DNA of 64,000 bases from Oscillospiraceae bacterium. GTDB taxonomy: Bacteria; Bacillota; Clostridia; Oscillospirales; QAMX01. The position numbers and the translations under genes were made by a program. The notes beneath the pieces were generated by a model. That model saw only the letters and a program-made list of their open reading frames with translations, had not been told where the DNA came from and did not search any database. This document shows, piece by piece, positions 799 to 54,701 of this stretch. The DNA lies in contig SVLY01000005.1 of the NCBI GenBank assembly GCA_015067715.1, forward strand, positions 8,312 through 72,311, given 5' to 3'. Each line of letters opens with the position of its first letter. Position 1 is the stretch's first letter.

Positions 799-817
799 AT
801 AAACAACAAAATGATCC

Positions 818-1070
818 GGTAAGTGAGGCTACTACGGGGATACGGATTGCTGCCGTGCAGCGGTGGAGACAGCGCTGCATCGGTCAACAGGCTTTATCGA
901 AACCAAGGTGAAGCATAACGCAATTACATGGCGAAGATCTGCCGCGCCCCGCAAAGCTAAAGCCCTGACGGTCGGCAGAGAGCAGTGCCTGCTCTCTGGC
1001 ATTTTGAAAGAAGCTGAAAGACTGAAATTTCCGCTCCTTTCGCTCCGTTTGGGCGAAAGGGGCTTTTTTT
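818..1070 (+). promoter_or_regulatory. M-box (ykoK-type) Mg2+ riboswitch with intrinsic terminator
   Basis: Blocks GGTAAGTGAGGCT, GGGGATACG, TGCTGCCGTGCAG, GGTCAACAGG, CCAAGGTGAAG and GCAAAGCTAAAGCCCTGACGG line up in order with the conserved M-box core as I recall it from the B. subtilis mgtE leader. An 11-bp stem (1033-1043 / 1053-1063) plus T-run 1064-1070 follows. It lies directly upstream of mgtE. Confidence 0.8.
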
Positions 1071-23204: not shown

Positions 23205-23537
23205 GCAAACGAAAAACGCTTTCGCTCTTTGCCCATACAAATGTCAAAGAGACGAAAGCGTTTACAAACAAAGTATAAACGGTTAAACCTTCCGCGGTAC
23301 CACTCTTCTTCGCAAAAGAAGCTCTTTTGCGCCCTTTTGAGGCCAACACCTCATAACTCTGTCACGGGAGTACCCGTCTGCCCTTACTTGCCCGGAGAAC
23401 CGGAGCTTTCAGTACAGCCACTCCATGGTGAGTTCAGCCCGACCCTCCCAATGCCTCGCACCTGCCGGCATCTCTCTGAAGGGGAGAAAACAGGACCTAC
23501 TGATCCACTTCGTTGTGTTTTGAATTCTACAAGGCAA
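23205..23537 (-). promoter_or_regulatory. T-box leader (leucine-specific) controlling ridA-leuACDB
   Basis: The reverse strand shows an AGAGAG bulge and a specifier-loop context GAA-CUC-A (CUC is the complement of 23430-23432). The conserved T-box AGAGTGGTACCGCGGAAG is the complement of 23289-23307. A terminator stem (23214-23231 / 23245-23263) with a U-tract follows. Confidence 0.8.
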
Positions 23538-47131: not shown

Positions 47132-47160
47132 TTGACAAAACCCGGCGCTTGTATTAAAAT
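47132..47160 (+). promoter_or_regulatory. Sigma-A type promoter of tRNA-Arg
   Basis: TTGACA (47132-47137), 17 nt, TAAAAT (47155-47160). Confidence 0.55.
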
Positions 47161-47175
47161 ATTCGGGTATGATAT

Positions 47176-47248
47176 GCCCCGGTAGCTCAGGGGATAGAGC
47201 ATTCGCCTCCTAAGCGAAGGGTCGGACGTTCGATTCGTCTTCGGGGTG
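47176..47248 (+). tRNA. tRNA-Arg (anticodon CCT)
   Basis: It folds by hand into a 73-nt cloverleaf. Acceptor gccccgg/tcggggt, D arm gctc-aggggata-gagc, anticodon arm ttcgc-ctCCTaa-gcgaa, variable gggtc, T arm ggacg-ttcgatt-cgtct, discriminator g. No encoded CCA. Confidence 0.85.
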
Positions 47249-47249
47249 T
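47207..47249 (+). repeat. 43-bp direct repeat, copy 1 (attL-like, inside the 3' part of tRNA-Arg)
   Basis: ctcctaagcgaagggtcggacgttcgattcgtcttcggggtgt is identical to 50658-50700. Confidence 0.9.
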
Positions 47250-47258
47250 GTTAAAACA

Positions 47259-47298
47259 AAAGAAGCGCTTCTGCCACAAAGAGCAGGAGCGCTTCTTT
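47259..47298. terminator. Intrinsic terminator between tRNA-Arg and the convergent fic gene
   Basis: Arms aaagaagcgc (47259-47268) / gcgcttcttt (47289-47298), with T-runs on both sides. Confidence 0.55.
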
Positions 47299-47345
47299 TT
47301 GTCTTGAAATTTGTCCTGATCATTTTTTTTTGAACGGTCTGTACA

Positions 47346-48383
47346 TCATTTTGGAGCATAGAACGTGTTTTTGCCTGCGCCGTGTTTGGAAATATAGCCA
47401 TCTGCAACCAGCTTCTTTAAGTGGCGCTCCACTGTGGAGGCGCTAAGGCTGGGGCACAGCTCCAGGATTTCCTTCTTAGTGAACTTGCCCAGTTTGTTTT
47501 CAATGGCGTTTTTCACGGTATCAAGAGATGTGGGACTGACGATCCGGATGCGATCGTCGAAGTCGCGGTATGCGGCGATGATGGTGCTCAGCAGATATTT
47601 GACGAACGAAGTGGGATCGTCCTGCTGCTCGTGCCAGCCGACCTGTGAATCCTCCAGCGCTGCATAGTAGGCATCCTTGTTCTTTGCGATCTTAGCTTCC
47701 AGCGAGATATACTTACCGACCTCATAGCCTGCGCGGTACAGCAGCAGGGTCGTAAGCAGACGGGACATTCTGCCGTTGCCGTCAAGGAAGGGGTGGACGC
47801 AAAGGAAGTCGTGAATAAACACGGGGATGATCAGCAGCGGATCCACTTTGCCTTCGCCAATGGCACGGTTATATTCGTCGCAGATCACCTGCATGGCTTC
47901 CGGCGTTTCATAAGGCGCCATGGGGGTGAACAGGGTGAAGCGTTTGCCTGCTTCATCGGTGGCGCTGATATAGTTCTGTACATTTTTGAAACTACCACCG
48001 AAGCCGGAATCGGTATGGCTGAGCAATATCCTGTGAAGCTGCAGAATGTAATTCGGTGTCAGCGGAATATAATCGAAGTTTTCATGTATGATGTTCAGCG
48101 CGTCGCGGTAACCGGCGATCTCTTTCTCGTCACGGTTACGGGGCGCTGTGCGCTCGCTCATAAGCTGGCGCAAACGGGTCTCCGTTGTGCGTATTCCTTC
48201 GATGGAGTTGGATGCCTCGGTGCTCTGTACCTTGGCGATCTCAACCAACCGCTCAAGCTCTTGCGGCTTCTGCTCTATATATACGGAATGTCTTCCTTTG
48301 TACTCATGAATGAGAGACAGGAAGTTAATGACCTCGTTATCCCACGTCCGGTTTTCCAGACCCGTATAATCAAAACAGCGCAT
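47346..48383 (-). CDS. Fic family protein (class II, N-terminal inhibitory motif) with C-terminal winged-helix domain
   Basis: ORF trimmed to MRCFDYTG, after GGAGGTG. It has the Fic motif HPFLDGNGRMSR, the inhibitory (S/T)xxxE(G/N) motif SNSIEG, and a C-terminal LSASTVERHLKKLVADGYI. Confidence 0.85.
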   Translation of the reverse strand: MRCFDYTGLENRTWDNEVINFLSLIHEYKGRHSVYIEQKPQELERLVEIAKVQSTEASNSIEGIRTTETRLRQLMSERTAPRNRDEKEIAGYRDALNIIHENFDYIPLTPNYILQLHRILLSHTDSGFGGSFKNVQNYISATDEAGKRFTLFTPMAPYETPEAMQVICDEYNRAIGEGKVDPLLIIPVFIHDFLCVHPFLDGNGRMSRLLTTLLLYRAGYEVGKYISLEAKIAKNKDAYYAALEDSQVGWHEQQDDPTSFVKYLLSTIIAAYRDFDDRIRIVSPTSLDTVKNAIENKLGKFTKKEILELCPSLSASTVERHLKKLVADGYISKHGAGKNTFYAPK

Positions 48384-48404
48384 CTCGTCACCTCCATAAT
48401 CTAT

Positions 48405-48441
48405 TCTCGTCAATTATATCATCTTTGACGAGAAAAATCAA
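48405..48441 (-). promoter_or_regulatory. fic promoter with a 9-bp inverted repeat bracketing the -10
   Basis: Reverse strand: TTGATT (48436-48441), 17 nt, TATAAT (48413-48418). Inverted repeat tctcgtcaa (48405-48413) / ttgacgaga (48425-48433). Confidence 0.5.
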
Positions 48442-48756
48442 TGGGTGAAGAGAAACTTGCAAAAGTTCTGCTCCACCTAAAGCTGCAAATTACCTTTATC
48501 TTCATCATAATATCATATATTTTATTTTTGATAAAGGTTTTTTTATTGTAATTTTTGACCATTCCATGCGTTGGAGTGGACAGTTTTGTAATGAGGTTAC
48601 CCGCTCTGTTCGTGTAATGGTGCCACGCGTTCAGGACTGGCTGCGAAATCTGCGAAAGCTATGGAAAACAGCTTGGTTTTGACCCTAAAACCCCGAAAAA
48701 TACGGATCTTACGCAAGAAACGGATATTGCAGATCCCTTCAAGGGGGATAAGTCTG

Positions 48757-48800
48757 GCCTCCTAAGCGGAACGCTCCCGGTTCGAATCCGGGCAAGCGCG
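48757..48800 (+). other. Orphan 3' half of a second, different tRNA-Arg(CCT); att-site relic
   Basis: gcctcctaagcg (identical to 47205-47216), then gga-acgct-cccgg-ttcgaat-ccggg-caagcgc-g. This gives a well-formed anticodon 3' stem, T arm and acceptor 3' strand. No matching 5' half lies upstream. Confidence 0.7.
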
Positions 48801-49083
48801 CCGAAAAGTGCCGAAAACACTACGTTTTCAGGGCTTTTACTTTTCTTCGCTCACTTATTTTCTTAAGTGAGTATTTTATTTTGGAGAGTAGAATAAACTC
48901 AAACTTTTAACATATCCCAATTAGCAGGAATTTAGCAGAAAATCGGCGTTTTGCTAATCGGTTTTTCAGCAAAATCCTGCTAATTTGCGCAGGCGTATGC
49001 TCCATCCATAGACTTTTGCATAAATTATGCTATTATCGTTTTATCTATGTTATAATATTACGTGAAAAAATAAAGTAAAAATT

Positions 49084-49108
49084 GAACCTTTTGATGCCGG
49101 CTCCCGTC
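49084..49108 (+). promoter_or_regulatory. ECF-type promoter candidate (GAAC-N17-CGTC)
   Basis: tGAACc (49084-49087), 17 nt, cCGTCta (49105-49108), about 50 nt upstream of the ECF sigma start. Confidence 0.4.
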
Positions 49109-49159
49109 TATATAAGTGAAACCGGTTTTAATCACTCATAAAAAAAAGGAGGTGATGAT

Positions 49160-50431
49160 GTGGATGAGTTTGAGAGATTGCTGGAAGCAGAACGTGTTTC
49201 TGTGGAACGGTTTGTGAGATTTCGGATGAGTTCTAAAGCGGATGCAGACGATGTGCTGCAGGAGATATTCCTTACAGCGTATCAGAAGTTTCCTCAGCTG
49301 AAGAATAAGGACTCATTCAAAGCGTGGATCATTAGCATCGCAAGAAACAAATGCAATGATTATTTCAGAAAGAAAGCGACTCAGTACGAAATTCCAATTG
49401 ATGAGTTGACAGAAAAGGAACTATCAGACGGTAGACATGGTGTTTCCGTAGTTAATACTGTAAGAGAAACGTTGAGTTTGCTCGGTGATAAGGATAAGCA
49501 GATCCTTTACCTTTACTTCTGGAAAGAGATGCCGCAGTCAGAAATCGCAAAACAACTGAACATCCCTATTGGGACTGTAAAAAGCAGACTTCATACAGCA
49601 AAACAAAACTTCAAAAATAAGTATCCATATCGCACCGATGTATCGAAAGGAGAACTCTATATGAAAAAGTTGCCTGAATTTATTCCCGAATATAAAATCG
49701 AAGCGAGTACCGAAGCTCCCTTTGCAGTCAAATGGGAAGAACTTATGGGATGGTTCTTGGTTCCTAAGCTCGGTGAAAAGTTGTCTTGGGGTATGTACGA
49801 TATCCCGTCCCGTAAGTGCAGCCATATTTACGATATGCAAGTTTCCGGCAAAGCAAAGGTTCACGGTATTGAGGGCGTAGAGCTAACCGCAAGAGAAGCA
49901 TCATACTCAGATAAGAACGATGTGATCAATCGTACCTTTGTGGCCCAACTGACAGATACACATTGCCGCTATCTGGCAACACTCAGAAATGACGGCGATG
50001 TTCGCAATTATATTACATTCCTCGATGGGGATGAATTTCTGCCTAACTGGGGATTTGGCGAAGATAATTGTGGCAATGAAACTAATCTGGCAGTCAAGGG
50101 TGATATCCAGAGAACGGATACAGTTGTTACAAGCGCCAACAAAGATTTTCTGTTGGACATTGTAGGCCGTTACACCGTTACGATTGGCGGAAAGAGCTAT
50201 GACACTGTCTGTGTTATGGACATCGAAACCTATAATTGCGGTGTTGTATCGGAGCAGTTCCTGGATAAAAACGGAAAGACGATTCTTTGGCGCAGATTTA
50301 ATCGTGATGATTGGGCTATTGATCGCTATAAGAAGCCGTGGAGTGAGCAGCTACCGGAGAACGACAGACTTACCGTAAACGGTACGACCTATGTTCACTG
50401 GTACGATTGTATCACCGATTATATTCTATGA
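49160..50431 (+). CDS. ECF-type sigma-70 family factor fused to a C-terminal domain of unknown function (about 250 aa)
   Basis: GTG start after AAGGAGG. Region 2: DDVLQEIFLTAYQKFPQLKNKDSFKAWIISIARNKCNDYFRK. Region 4: MPQSEIAKQLNIPIGTVKSRLHTAKQNF. A soluble Cys/Trp/Asp-rich domain with no TM helix follows. Confidence 0.8.
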   Translation: MDEFERLLEAERVSVERFVRFRMSSKADADDVLQEIFLTAYQKFPQLKNKDSFKAWIISIARNKCNDYFRKKATQYEIPIDELTEKELSDGRHGVSVVNTVRETLSLLGDKDKQILYLYFWKEMPQSEIAKQLNIPIGTVKSRLHTAKQNFKNKYPYRTDVSKGELYMKKLPEFIPEYKIEASTEAPFAVKWEELMGWFLVPKLGEKLSWGMYDIPSRKCSHIYDMQVSGKAKVHGIEGVELTAREASYSDKNDVINRTFVAQLTDTHCRYLATLRNDGDVRNYITFLDGDEFLPNWGFGEDNCGNETNLAVKGDIQRTDTVVTSANKDFLLDIVGRYTVTIGGKSYDTVCVMDIETYNCGVVSEQFLDKNGKTILWRRFNRDDWAIDRYKKPWSEQLPENDRLTVNGTTYVHWYDCITDYIL

Positions 50432-50591
50432 CAGAATAAACATTAACATGGTACGACATTAGTAAACACGATTTACGCTTATTATCGCCACCCTAAAATC
50501 ACGCCTTCTGCTAATTGCTTGCTAATCAAATACAGTAAAACAACATAAAATCAACGGTAACGGCGTAACAGAAGATGATACTTTAACCTTT

Positions 50592-50618
50592 AAAATCTCC
50601 TGACAGCAGGGGATTTTT
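50592..50618 (+). terminator. Intrinsic terminator downstream of the ECF sigma gene
   Basis: Stem aaaatctcctg (50592-50602) / caggggatttt (50607-50617) with one G-U pair, and a T-run. Confidence 0.55.
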
Positions 50619-50657
50619 AGGTATCGCAAGGGATGCCGTTATCGTTTCCCTCGGTAT

Positions 50658-50700
50658 CTCCTAAGCGAAGGGTCGGACGTTCGATTCGTCTTCGGGGTGT
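50658..50700 (+). repeat. 43-bp direct repeat, copy 2 (attR-like; orphan tRNA-Arg 3' part)
   Basis: It is identical to 47207-47249. The upstream sequence (ccgttatcgtttccctcggtat) has no D arm or 5' acceptor, so this is not a full tRNA. Confidence 0.9.
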
Positions 50701-50708
50701 AGAGTCAT

Positions 50709-50746
50709 AAAAAAGGAACAGGTCAGATCTGACCTGTTCCTTTTTT
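50709..50746. terminator. Bidirectional intrinsic terminator
   Basis: Perfect palindrome aaaaaaggaacaggtcaga/tctgacctgttcctttttt. Confidence 0.75.
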
Positions 50747-50778
50747 ATATTTTGTTTTCTGTTATCTCCGTCCTGTAT

Positions 50779-54375: not shown

Positions 54376-54407
54376 GACTCCCAAGATGCCTTGGGAGTCT
54401 CTTTTTT
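54376..54407 (+). terminator. Intrinsic terminator after the transporter gene
   Basis: Stem gactcccaag (54376-54385) / cttgggagtc (54390-54399), then tcTTTTTT. Confidence 0.75.
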
Positions 54408-54455
54408 GTCTTGAAACACGGGGGGGATTTGTGGTATTATAAATTCACTTAAAGC
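54401..54455 (+). repeat. Terminator-tail/promoter cassette, copy 1 (P1)
   Basis: cttttttgtcttgaaacacgggggggatttgtggtattataaattcacttaaagc. TTGAAA (54411-54416), 18 nt, TATTAT (54435-54440). It matches copy 2 except for one extra T and one extra G in homopolymer runs. Confidence 0.85.
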
Positions 54456-54654
54456 CGTACACCGTAGGGGCGAACTGCGTTCGCCCGTTTGGCGTATCAT
54501 CCCTGCTACCTTTCCCGTCGACATTGTGCCCAAGGAGACCTTTTCCGGACGCCCCGGGAGGGGCGTCCCTACATTTCAAAGAACCAGCAGCCCAAACCCG
54601 CCGAGCCACAGAAAAGAGAAGATTCGTATCATAACGAGTCTTCTCTTTCTTTTT
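54447..54654 (+). ncRNA. Candidate structured small RNA (about 200 nt) transcribed from P1
   Basis: It has its own promoter (copy 1) and its own terminator: stem 54616-54626 / 54635-54645 plus tttcttttt. GC-rich hairpins are ggggcgaac/gttcgccc (about 54467-54492) and ggacgcccc-ggga-ggggcgtcc (about 54549-54570). There is no convincing ORF. Confidence 0.3.
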
Positions 54655-54701
54655 GTCTTGAAACACGGGGGGATTTGTGGTATTATAAATTCACTTAAAG
54701 C
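54649..54701 (+). repeat. Terminator-tail/promoter cassette, copy 2 (P2, promoter of glxK)
   Basis: ctttttgtcttgaaacacggggggatttgtggtattataaattcacttaaagc. TTGAAA (54658-54663), 17 nt, TATTAT (54681-54686). Confidence 0.85.

What the first reader, a model, noticed from the sequence alone, without database searches (positions are those of the whole stretch)
47176..50700. Two stacked, integrase-less islands at tRNA-Arg(CCU): one intact tRNA plus two orphan 3' halves
An intact tRNA-Arg(CCT) lies at 47176-47248. An exact 43-bp copy of its 3' part follows 3.4 kb later (47207-47249 equals 50658-50700). The copy starts in the anticodon loop and runs through the acceptor end, which is the classic attL/attR footprint of a tyrosine-integrase island.

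A third, different tRNA-Arg(CCT) 3' half sits between them at 48757-48800. It shares the 12-nt gcctcctaagcg core, but its T arm (cccgg/ccggg) and acceptor strand (caagcgc) cannot pair with the resident 5' acceptor gccccgg. It therefore looks like a relic brought in from a donor with a different tRNA-Arg.

This relic splits the insert in two. Segment A (47250-48800) carries a Fic gene. Segment B (48801-50657) is visibly AT-richer and carries an ECF sigma fusion. Neither segment keeps an integrase, excisionase or transposase. The layout fits serial integration at one hotspot followed by decay, leaving only cargo. That reading is inference.
Basis: partly seen in the sequence, partly recalled or inferred. 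Interest (0 to 1): 0.7.

Follow-up and report, generated by a model that had tools for sequence, protein, structure and literature searches.

The report
Integrase-less cassettes stacked in tRNA-Arg
Two small mobile DNA cassettes that have no integrase of their own sit one behind the other in the anticodon loop of a tRNA-Arg gene; one of them belongs to a widespread, apparently undescribed family in gut Clostridia that normally splits the host tRNA gene and brings its own replacement tRNA.

Summary
There is an intact tRNA-Arg(CCT), an exact 43-bp copy of its 3' half 3,451 bp downstream, and a different orphan 3' half between them. Strains of the same species carry an empty site that lacks exactly 3,451 bp. 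Other strains carry different inserts at the same site.

Segment B (48759-50657) did not decay here. It belongs to a family of 1.8-4 kb integrase-less elements found in at least 43 Clostridia species. Members share a ~220-bp left arm and a ~175-bp right arm with TGCTAAT repeats, and carry unrelated cargo. In the canonical form the element inserts at CTCCTAAG in the anticodon loop, splits the host tRNA, and carries a complete tRNA-Arg(CCT) of its own. The window's "relic" is the 3' half of that element-borne tRNA.

The same B unit (91% identity, core to core) occurs in another host. There it keeps its complete tRNA, or lies in tandem with an element encoding a tyrosine integrase. Related integrase-bearing elements have the same arm layout.

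Segment A carries a SoFic-type Fic gene between arms seen nowhere else. It joins B inside B's tRNA and supplies the host-type 3' half, so the tRNA stays intact.

Mobilisation by a borrowed integrase is inferred, not shown.

The parts
47132..47160 (+). Sigma-70-type promoter of the tRNA gene (TTGACA-17-TAAAAT). It belongs to the host and is also present in the empty-site allele.
   Evidence: Consensus scan, 11 of 12 matches. The sequence is shared with empty-site locus L005.
47175..47249 (+). Intact tRNA-Arg(CCT), the left junction (attL). With crossover in the anticodon loop, the 5' part is host DNA and the 3' part from 47207 was supplied by segment A (inference).
   Evidence: ARAGORN; Rfam, 57 bits. 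Identical to the tRNA in empty-site alleles.
47207..47249 (+). Copy 1 of the 43-bp direct repeat. Its first 8 bases, CTCCTAAG, are the recombination core (anticodon loop).
   Evidence: The core is shared by all junctions in related loci.
47250..47345 (.). Left end of segment A, 96 bp and AT-rich, with a bidirectional terminator-type hairpin at 47258-47299. No recognisable arm-type repeats.
   Evidence: Inverted repeat I5; GC 0.385. No relatives in any fetched locus.
47346..48383 (-). Cargo of segment A: a Fic-domain protein with a C-terminal wHTH (345 aa). It has the motif HPFLDGNGRMSR and an N-terminal SNSIEG inhibitory-type motif. It is a SoFic-type candidate for anti-phage defence.
   Evidence: Pfam Fic, 1.6e-17; PADLOC SoFic, 4e-41; PDB 8uqu, 2e-71. 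Motifs read from the translation.
48384..48756 (.). Right arm of segment A. It holds the Fic promoter (48413-48441, minus strand), a direct repeat TGCGAAAtcTGCGAAA at 48642-48657, and a small hairpin CCCTTCAAGGGGG just before the core.
   Evidence: Only the ~60 bp next to Fic is shared with Fic loci elsewhere. The rest has no relatives found.
48757..48800 (+). Orphan 3' half of segment B's own tRNA-Arg(CCT) (core CTCCTAAG at 48759-48766). This is the hybrid junction between A's right arm and B's left end.
   Evidence: 95% identical to the 3' half of complete element-borne tRNAs in L034, L026, L063, L109 and others. Not a tRNA here.
48801..49018 (.). Conserved left arm of the B-type element. 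It holds a degenerate terminator hairpin after the tRNA half, a hairpin at 48849-48872, and TGCTAAT-type repeats at 48920-48938 (inverted pair), 48952-48958 and 48978-48984.
   Evidence: 80% identical to L007, which carries different cargo. Conserved in 22 distinct sequences up to about 49018.
49160..50431 (+). Cargo of segment B: an ECF-type sigma factor (regions 2 and 4, residues 1-155) fused to a domain of about 260 residues of unknown fold. The gene is AT-rich (GC3 0.45).
   Evidence: A 423-aa homolog is 98% identical, and many more are 85-91% identical. In a genome whose protein NCBI labels Lachnospiraceae, the ORF alone sits in an ordinary chromosomal context. The AF2 model is poor, pLDDT 55.6.
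50480..50657 (.). Conserved right arm of the B-type element. It holds CACCCTAAAA, the paired repeat CTGCTAATTGCTTGCTAAT (50508-50526, 150 bp before the core), GGTAACGGCGTAACA, a terminator-type hairpin at about 50592-50618, and GGGATGCCGTTATCGTTTCCCTCGGTAT next to the core.
   Evidence: 92% identical to L007. Strongly conserved in 52 distinct sequences, with conservation ending at CTCCTAAG plus one base, after which sequences are host-specific.
50658..50700 (+). Copy 2 of the 43-bp repeat: the displaced original 3' half of the host tRNA (attR core plus 3' half), followed by native host flank.
   Evidence: The flank from 50701 continues as in the empty site.
50707..50748 (.). Native bidirectional terminator after the tRNA and after the DUF3006 gene. 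It is host DNA and lies directly after the tRNA in the empty site.
   Evidence: Perfect 21-bp inverted repeat. Present in L005 directly after the tRNA.

Best explanation
The 3,451 bp between the two 43-bp repeats is a tandem of two small integrative elements that cannot move on their own. They were inserted by site-specific (tyrosine-recombinase type) recombination at the 8-bp core CTCCTAAG, which is the anticodon loop of tRNA-Arg(CCT).

**Segment B (core at 48759 to core at 50658).**
- B belongs to a family of 1.8-4 kb integrase-less cassettes.
- Each member has a conserved left arm, interchangeable cargo, and a conserved right arm.
- In the canonical form, the element splits the host tRNA gene.
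- It then supplies a complete tRNA-Arg(CCT) of its own, about 65 bp downstream of the split and in the same orientation. This tRNA is probably read from the host tRNA promoter.
- Because any tRNA-Arg(CCT) anticodon loop is a target, B's own tRNA is itself a landing site.

**Segment A.**
- A is a Fic/SoFic cassette with unrelated arms.
- In the window it is joined to B inside B's tRNA, which leaves the "relic" 3' half.
- A's left end carries a host-type 3' half, which restores an intact tRNA.

**Mobilisation.** The elements are most likely moved by integrases borrowed from larger elements of the same att family, which encode PemK, HTH_17 excisionase-like proteins and an integrase. This could happen in trans, or as part of a tandem (cis-mobilisation).

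**Shown:** anatomy, boundaries, empty site, family, split tRNAs, and tandems with integrase-bearing elements.

**Inferred:** which integrase acts, the order of events, expression of the element tRNA, and whether this copy can still move.
For: **Empty site and alleles**
- Empty-site alleles L005, L006 and L009 have flanks 98.2-98.5% identical to the window. They differ by exactly 3,451 bp.
- Other alleles in the same species keep B-type arms but carry different cargo: L007 and its group (323 aa + 76 aa), and L014 (EamA transporter).

**A family, not a one-off**
- A right-arm 19-mer found 10 metagenome loci and 50 GTDB loci. At least 43 of the GTDB loci have true arms, 78-99% identical.
- The arms are conserved in 52 (right) and 22 (left) distinct sequences. 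Right-arm conservation stops at CTCCTAAG plus one base.
- 19 complete elements carry 25 unrelated protein clusters. None gave a recombinase or transposase Pfam hit, and none resembles the integrase.

**Split host tRNA and element-borne tRNA**
- At least 16 loci show an orphan host 5' half with core, then a spacer, then a complete element tRNA, with the host 3' half at the far end.
- Joining the two cores in silico restores a valid tRNA-Arg(CCT) in 11 of 14 loci.

**The same B unit elsewhere**
- Window 48759-50676 is 91.4% identical over 1,929 bp to a unit in another host.
- That unit has three different left neighbours: its own complete tRNA (L109); an integrase-bearing element joined at the core (L108, L111); and a third arm (L110).

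**Link to integrases**
- Integrase-bearing relatives L022/L043, L064, L091/L092 and L108 share 56-79% integrase identity.
- They carry paired TGCTAA-type repeats about 150-160 bp before the same core (an imperfect pair, TGCTAAT plus CTAAT, in L108). L064 carries B's exact 19-mer.
- L091 and L092 carry the same element next to different host 3' halves.
Against: - No recombination was observed. No circular form or attP junction was found that is distinct from a tandem.
- No integrase of this family lies in the 64-kb window. The rest of the genome could not be searched.
- The window's B has the single-core geometry, with the left arm 44 bp from the core. In canonical copies the distance is about 150 bp. 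It may no longer be a substrate.
- A's left end has no recognisable arm repeats, and A's arms have no relatives. A may simply be a dead remnant.
- Conserved arms could also spread cargo by homologous recombination.
- The Pfam summary for cargo lists only the top 25 of 40 families.
Confidence: 0.72

Rival explanations
1. One reading: two ordinary, autonomous tRNA-targeting islands integrated one after the other at this locus. Each then lost its integrase and other mobility genes here by deletion, leaving only cargo.
For: This is the standard three-step route to tandems and cis-mobilizable elements described for streptococci (PMC5704250). Segment A fits it. A has no arm relatives and no left-arm repeats. 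Its Fic gene elsewhere heads longer clusters of Fic, DUF6680, methyltransferase and helicase, of which only Fic is present here.
Against: For B, the same integrase-less architecture recurs in at least 43 species, with arms 78-99% identical and unrelated cargo. The same B unit lies core to core in a different host at 91% identity. Independent local decay would not delete precisely to the same arms each time.
Confidence: 0.15
2. The A-relic-B block was assembled in another genome and arrived here in a single integration as a composite. It was not built by two successive integrations at this locus.
For: Composite transfer of tandems is documented (PMC5704250). In that scenario the tRNA is never broken in this host, because A's left end already carries a 3' half identical to the host's. 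No allele with B(ECF) alone was found in this species among the contigs read.
Against: Nothing was found that excludes it. No A-B composite was found in any other species either. B(ECF) in the other host has other left neighbours. A's host-like GC3 (0.65) and exact host-type tRNA half suggest A is local, whereas B is foreign.
Confidence: 0.35
3. The insertion polymorphism in this species is maintained and spread by homologous recombination through the conserved flanks and arms (allele replacement). No site-specific recombination occurs today, and the arms are fossils.
For: Flanks are more than 98% identical between alleles. The arms provide 170-220 bp of homology between cassettes with different cargo. 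No integrase lies nearby.
Against: Junctions fall at the 8-bp core in hosts whose tRNA sequences are otherwise unrelated. The same unit is found in different hosts with no flank homology. Tandem arrays share cores. All of these need site-specific recombination at least historically.
Confidence: 0.2

Closest known systems
Cis-mobilizable elements (CIMEs) and tandem accretion with ICEs/IMEs (ICESt1/ICESt3 system of Streptococcus thermophilus; definitions in PMC6323972 and PMC5704250)
   Same: - No integration or transfer genes, but both att junctions are retained.
- They lie in tandem with elements that encode an integrase of the same site specificity.
- The tandem can in principle move as one unit.
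   Different: - CIMEs are described as local decay products of a given ICE or IME.
- The B-type elements form one sequence-conserved lineage across at least 43 species, with about 400 bp of arms and swapped cargo.
- They target the anticodon loop of a tRNA rather than the 3' end of a protein gene.
- In canonical form they carry a complete substitute tRNA.
Classical tRNA-targeting genomic islands and prophages with crossover in the anticodon loop (Williams 2002 classification of integrase sublocations; recalled from memory, not checked here)
   Same: - Recombination occurs in the anticodon loop.
- The window shows the textbook footprint: an intact tRNA plus a direct repeat running from the anticodon loop to the 3' end.
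   Different: - Classical elements encode their integrase next to the tRNA. They restore the gene through an attP identity block that reaches the 3' end.
- Canonical B-type elements share only CTCCTAAG with the target, leave the host gene split, and bring a whole tRNA gene instead.
- No integrase is present.
Tycheposons of Prochlorococcus (bioRxiv 10.1101/2020.12.28.424599)
   Same: - Cargo-carrying elements stack at tRNA genes and are separated by partial tRNA copies.
- New arrivals push older ones further into the island.
- Remnants are common.
   Different: - Tycheposons carry their own tyrosine recombinase and often replication genes.
- The hosts are unrelated.
- No replacement tRNA is described in the passages read.
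Non-autonomous elements that borrow a recombinase: MITEs, integron gene cassettes, and IMEX elements that use XerCD (analogy, from general knowledge)
   Same: Short recombination sites flank cargo, and the enzyme is supplied by another element or by the host.
   Different: The enzymes and sites differ. None of these targets a tRNA anticodon loop or carries a substitute tRNA.

Membership tests
Cis-mobilizable element (CIME) | Bounded by attL and attR (direct repeats of the target core) | tested here: met
   Cores lie at 47207, 48759 and 50658, with a 43-bp exact repeat at the outer ends.
Cis-mobilizable element (CIME) | No integrase, excisionase or transfer genes inside | tested here: met
   Only the Fic and ECF sigma genes are present. 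19 related complete elements have no recombinase hit.
Cis-mobilizable element (CIME) | att sites belong to the same family as those of an autonomous element that can sit in tandem with it | tested here: met
   Holds for B. Integrase-bearing L022/L043, L064, L091 and L108 share the core and have paired arm repeats about 150-160 bp away. Tandems occur in L022, L043, L108 and L111. For A this could not be shown.
Cis-mobilizable element (CIME) | Excision and transfer together with, or driven by, the autonomous partner | not testable with these tools
   Needs PCR or long-read detection of junctions, or a recombination assay.
Classical tRNA-integrating genomic island | Inserted at a tRNA gene with duplication of its 3' part, and with an empty site in relatives | tested here: met
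Classical tRNA-integrating genomic island | Own integrase gene at one end | tested here: not met
   No such ORF lies in 47250-50657, and none of this integrase family lies in the whole window.
B-type cassette family (defined here) | Conserved left arm (~220 bp) and right arm (~175 bp) with TGCTAAT repeats, ending at CTCCTAAG | tested here: met
   Window 48801-49018 and 50480-50657 align with 22 and 52 distinct sequences respectively.
B-type cassette family (defined here) | Complete element-borne tRNA-Arg(CCT) preceded by a ~65-bp spacer | tested here: not met
   Only the 3' half remains in the window (48757-48800). The complete form of the same unit is in L109. Truncated forms also occur in L022, L043, L041, L108, L110 and L111.
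Fic/Fido AMP-transferase, SoFic-type defence protein | Fic motif HxFx(D/E)GNGRxxR and full-length match to the family model | tested here: met
   HPFLDGNGRMSR is present in the translation. Pfam Fic; PADLOC SoFic, 4e-41, profile positions 36-349 of 361. NCBIfam SoFic scores below its cut-off. Defence activity was not tested.
ECF sigma factor | Sigma regions 2 and 4 only, without region 3 | tested here: met
   Pfam Sigma70_r2 and Sigma70_r4 within residues 9-149; TIGR02937 above its cut-off. The extra ~260 residues match nothing.
Tycheposon | Tycheposon-type tyrosine recombinase inside the element | tested here: not met
   There is no recombinase in the insert. The resemblance is limited to stacking at a tRNA.

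The most novel reading that the evidence does not exclude
B-type elements are a so-far undescribed class of parasitic "tRNA-swap" cassettes.
- They need only the 8-bp anticodon loop of any tRNA-Arg(CCT) as a target.
- They break the host gene and make the cell depend on their own tRNA, which is read from the captured host promoter. That both frees them from host range limits and stabilises them, in an addiction-like way.
- They rely wholly on integrases of larger ICE-like elements.
- Their own tRNA serves as a landing pad, so arrays of cargo cassettes build up.
Probability: 0.4. Interest if true: 0.8.

Novelty: new variant of a known kind. Interest (0 to 1): 0.65.

Why it matters
If it holds, gut Clostridia exchange regulators, transporters, defence genes and metabolic genes on kilobase-sized cassettes. 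Current island and ICE finders miss these, because the cassettes have no integrase.

The family also shows a second way for a mobile element to live in a tRNA gene: replace the gene rather than repair it. That explains orphan tRNA halves of foreign sequence in genomes, and it offers a natural bacterial route to split and replaced tRNA genes.

A cultured carrier makes this testable. Ruminococcoides intestinihominis CLA-AA-H171 holds a cassette in tandem with an integrase-bearing element.

Tried and rejected
- **Viral contigs, B arms.** Scans with the left-arm 23-mer and the right-arm 19-mer found nothing.
- **Viral contigs, A arm.** A scan with A's arm repeat gave four hits. All lie inside one phage coding gene and share no other similarity, so they are chance matches.
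- **A's arms.** BLAST of A's arms and Fic against all fetched loci found nothing.
- **Fic homolog contexts.** Five look-ups share only the Fic ORF and about 60 bp upstream. None lies at a tRNA.
- **Integrase in the window.** tblastn with two integrases of this family found nothing in the window.
- **Known RNAs in the arms.** Rfam gave only sub-threshold chance hits on terminator-like hairpins.
- **ECF fusion structure.** The prediction was too poor for a fold search (pLDDT 55.6), so none was run. The C-terminal domain has no PDB sequence match.
- **Literature.** Searches for an element-borne replacement tRNA combined with a core limited to the anticodon loop found no description. This is a limited search, not proof of absence.
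- **Assembly chimera.** I considered that the window's ECF gene might be a chimera, because two metagenome contigs break inside it. I rejected this: the 423-aa protein is intact and has a 98% identical full-length homolog.

Full report
**1.
- ARAGORN finds a single tRNA in the window, tRNA-Arg(CCT), at 47175-47249. Rfam scores it at 57 bits.
- The 43 bases 47207-47249 recur exactly at 50658-50700. There is no other match even with 3 mismatches allowed, and none in 100 shuffles.
- The repeat begins at the first base of the anticodon loop and ends at the tRNA's 3' end.
- At 48757-48800 lies a different tRNA-Arg(CCT) 3' half. It shares only GCCTCCTAAGCG with the resident gene.
- Neither orphan half is part of a tRNA gene. 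A host 5' half joined to this 3' half is not recognised as a tRNA.
- The insert holds two genes. One is a Fic-domain protein at 47346-48383(-). The other is an ECF sigma factor with a long C-terminal extension at 49160-50431(+). No recombinase is present.
- GC is 0.558 in both flanks, 0.48 in segment A and 0.407 in segment B. GC3 is 0.45 for the ECF gene, 0.65 for Fic and 0.62-0.73 for neighbouring host genes.

**2. An empty site exists, and the site is a hotspot.**
- I looked up contigs that encode the flanking 55-aa DUF3006 protein. This returned strains of the same species, with flanks 98.2-98.5% identical over more than 13 kb. In these, the tRNA is followed directly by the native terminator (L005, L006, L009).
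- The distance between anchors is 189 bp there and 3,640 bp in the window. The difference is exactly 3,451 bp, the spacing of the repeat.
- Other strains carry a 1,835-bp insert with the same ends as segment B but different genes, 323 aa + 76 aa on the other strand (L007, L008, L011-L013). Its left end is 80% and its right end 92% identical to B's. Its distal tRNA half has 2 mismatches.
- One MAG (L014) has B's right end followed by an EamA-type transporter.
- L001, L002, L010 and L036 carry the window's own arrangement.
- The organism is an uncultured Clostridia bacterium. Near-identical proteins in NCBI carry that label.

**3. Segment B belongs to a large family of integrase-less cassettes.**
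- The 19-mer TGCTAATTGCTTGCTAATC from the right arm found 10 true loci in metagenomes. It found 50 loci in one-genome-per-species GTDB contigs.
- At least 43 of the GTDB loci have a right arm 78-99% identical to the window's or to L034's. All of these are Clostridia from ruminant and human guts: Oscillospiraceae, Acutalibacteraceae, Ruminococcus, Faecousia and Fimenecus. They include the cultured Ruminococcoides intestinihominis CLA-AA-H171.
- In an alignment of 52 distinct right arms, most positions are conserved up to CTCCTAAG plus one base. After that the sequences are host-specific.
- 22 distinct left arms are conserved from the tRNA half to about 49018.
- Between the arms lie 1.3-3.5 kb of unrelated cargo. 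In 19 complete elements I counted 25 protein clusters. They include:
  - an ECF sigma factor with its anti-sigma factor;
  - LysR with an EamA transporter;
  - a sensor kinase with a response regulator;
  - an AMP-binding enzyme;
  - Crp with a ferredoxin and a hybrid-cluster protein;
  - zinc-ribbon proteins.
- None matched a recombinase or transposase family among the hits shown, and none resembles the integrase described below.

**4. The canonical element splits the host tRNA and brings its own.**
- In at least 16 loci, the order along the DNA is as follows:
  - the host tRNA 5' half, ending in CTCCTAAG;
  - a conserved spacer of about 65 bp;
  - a complete tRNA-Arg(CCT), GCGCTTGTA...CAAGCGCGCCA;
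  - the left arm, the cargo and the right arm;
  - CTCCTAAG followed by the host tRNA 3' half.
- Host halves differ widely between species, whereas the element tRNA is nearly constant. Host and element share only the 8-bp core.
- Removing everything between the outer cores in silico restores a valid tRNA-Arg(CCT) in 11 of 14 loci. The three failures are arrays or mismatched halves.
- The window's "relic" is 95% identical to the 3' half of this element-borne tRNA.
- A strong terminator follows the element tRNA. In L034 and L109 a host promoter precedes the orphan 5' half. I therefore infer that the element tRNA is read from the captured host promoter.

**5. The same B unit occurs elsewhere with other neighbours.**
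- The ECF fusion has a 98% identical, 423-aa homolog, so the gene is intact.
- In that homolog's contigs (L108-L111), window 48759-50676 aligns at 91.4% over 1,929 bp. That is core to core. The unit sits next to a different host tRNA 3' half and a fucosidase gene.
- The left neighbour varies:
  - in L109, the unit's own complete tRNA after a spacer and an orphan 5' half;
  - in L108 and L111, the right arm of an integrase-bearing element, joined at the core directly to the 3' half;
  - in L110, a third kind of arm.
- L026 and L022 show the same pair of states for the human-gut cassette.
- The anticodon loop of the cassette's own tRNA is therefore a recurrent recombination site. The junction between segment A and the relic in the window is one more instance.
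- In a genome whose protein NCBI labels Lachnospiraceae (and in a near-identical contig), only the ECF ORF is similar (80% DNA identity), in an ordinary chromosomal context. That is a plausible source of the AT-rich cargo.

**6. Candidate enzymes.**
- In L022 and L043, an element immediately left of the cassette ends with a PemK toxin, three HTH_17 excisionase-like proteins and a 468-aa tyrosine integrase. Then come a ~300-bp arm and the core.
- Relatives of this integrase are 56-79% identical to each other:
  - L064: integrase, a 1,207-aa protein, an arm with B's exact 19-mer, the core 149 bp further on, then a spacer and a complete tRNA.
  - L091 and L092: ImpB, PemK, HTH_17 and the integrase, with different host 3' halves in the two contigs.
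  - L108: the integrase plus a purine-nucleoside-phosphorylase-type gene and an ANT-type nucleotidyltransferase gene.
- All have paired TGCTAA-type repeats (an imperfect pair in L108) about 150-160 bp before the same core, as in B's right arm.
- That is the basis for proposing that B-type cassettes are moved by borrowed integrases, in trans or as tandems. This corresponds to what the literature calls cis-mobilizable elements and accretion (PMC6323972; PMC5704250).
- No such integrase lies in the window. No recombination product was observed.

**7. Segment A.**
- Its Fic protein has the catalytic motif HPFLDGNGRMSR.
- It matches the PADLOC SoFic model over nearly its full length (4e-41) and PDB 8uqu (2e-71). 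It is a candidate single-gene anti-phage defence.
- Homologs 82-91% identical are abundant. They head clusters of Fic, DUF6680, methyltransferase and helicase at other, non-tRNA loci. DNA similarity is limited to the ORF and about 60 bp upstream.
- A's arms (47250-47345 and about 48442-48756) have no relatives in anything fetched.
- The right arm has a direct repeat TGCGAAAtcTGCGAAA and a hairpin before the core. This recalls the layout of the other arms but in a different sequence.
- A may be a cassette of another arm family, or a remnant.

**8. How the window's arrangement arose (inference).** If crossover is in the anticodon loop, the 3' half next to the host flank (50658-50700) is the original host half. 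The half in the intact tRNA came with A. There are two possible routes:
- **(i) Serial integration.** A single-core B integrated first and made a non-functional chimeric tRNA. A then integrated into that loop and repaired it.
- **(ii) Composite arrival.** A-B formed elsewhere and arrived as a unit.

A variant of (i) starts from a canonical B, followed by deletion between direct cores, as seen in L026 versus L022. The data do not decide between these routes.

**9. Comparison and novelty.**
- The footprint in the window is the classical one. The framework of stacking at a tRNA and of integrase-less elements in tandem is known, both from CIMEs and from tycheposons.
- I did not find the following combination described:
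  - a conserved, widespread integrase-less lineage with interchangeable cargo;
  - a target limited to the anticodon loop;
  - a complete replacement tRNA that is itself a landing site.
- I rate it a new variant of a known kind.

Noticed in passing
L067:6659-8000: After the right core of one cassette comes a second spacer, a slightly degenerate element-type tRNA and only the start of a left arm. These are followed directly by thiamine-biosynthesis-like genes (ThiS/ThiF-like ORFs). The element-type tRNA seems to have become the resident tRNA-Arg(CCT) of that genome.
   Followed up: partly
window 54403-54455 and 54650-54701: A 53-bp direct repeat (98% identical) contains a promoter-like TTGAAA...TATTATAAA. 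It flanks a ~195-bp GC-rich segment with palindromes (GTAGGGGCGAAC...GGGGCGTCCCTAC) upstream of the glycerate kinase gene. This region differs in other strains. It looks like a small insertion with a duplicated target or promoter.
   Followed up: no
window 23272-23522 (-) and 808-983 (+): A T-box leader (107 bits) and an M-box magnesium riboswitch (94 bits), both above Rfam gathering scores.
   Followed up: no
L108:1110-4600 (also L111): The integrase-bearing element next to the B(ECF) cassette carries, between its integrase and right arm, a PNP_UDP_1 gene and an Adenyl_transf (PF04439, ANT-type nucleotidyltransferase) gene. The latter is a possible antibiotic-modifying cargo.
   Followed up: no
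L020:1105-1380: This variant has an intact host tRNA plus ~85 bp of native downstream flank, followed by a left arm that starts only at AAAATCGCCGTTTTGCTAAT. The same tRNA 3' half and flank recur at the right end. The duplication therefore extends beyond the tRNA, and simple core recombination does not explain it.
   Followed up: no
window 49706-49832 (L001/L010 overlap): Two contigs from one metagenome, both 100% identical to the window, end inside the ECF gene with a 127-bp overlap. The assembly probably broke because this gene or cassette exists in several contexts in the community.
   Followed up: partly
L094:8001-16401, L103, L105: The closest Fic homologs are the first gene of clusters with DUF6680, an N6/N4 DNA methyltransferase and a ResIII helicase. 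In L094 these lie near T5orf172 and AbiTii genes. This is a defence-island context.
   Followed up: partly
L064:1083-4706: A 1,207-aa protein with only faint TPR matches lies between the integrase and the right arm of an autonomous relative. Its function is unknown.
   Followed up: no
window 49640-50431 (residues ~160-423 of the ECF fusion): The C-terminal ~260 residues are invariant in length and 85-98% conserved across many Clostridia. They match no Pfam family or PDB sequence. AlphaFold2 predicts mostly beta strands at low confidence.
   Followed up: partly
L007:4364-5335: The 323-aa cargo protein of the alternative allele gives weak PADLOC matches to LeoBC and LeoA models (1.6e-6 and 4e-4). 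It is possibly another defence-related cargo at the same site.
   Followed up: no
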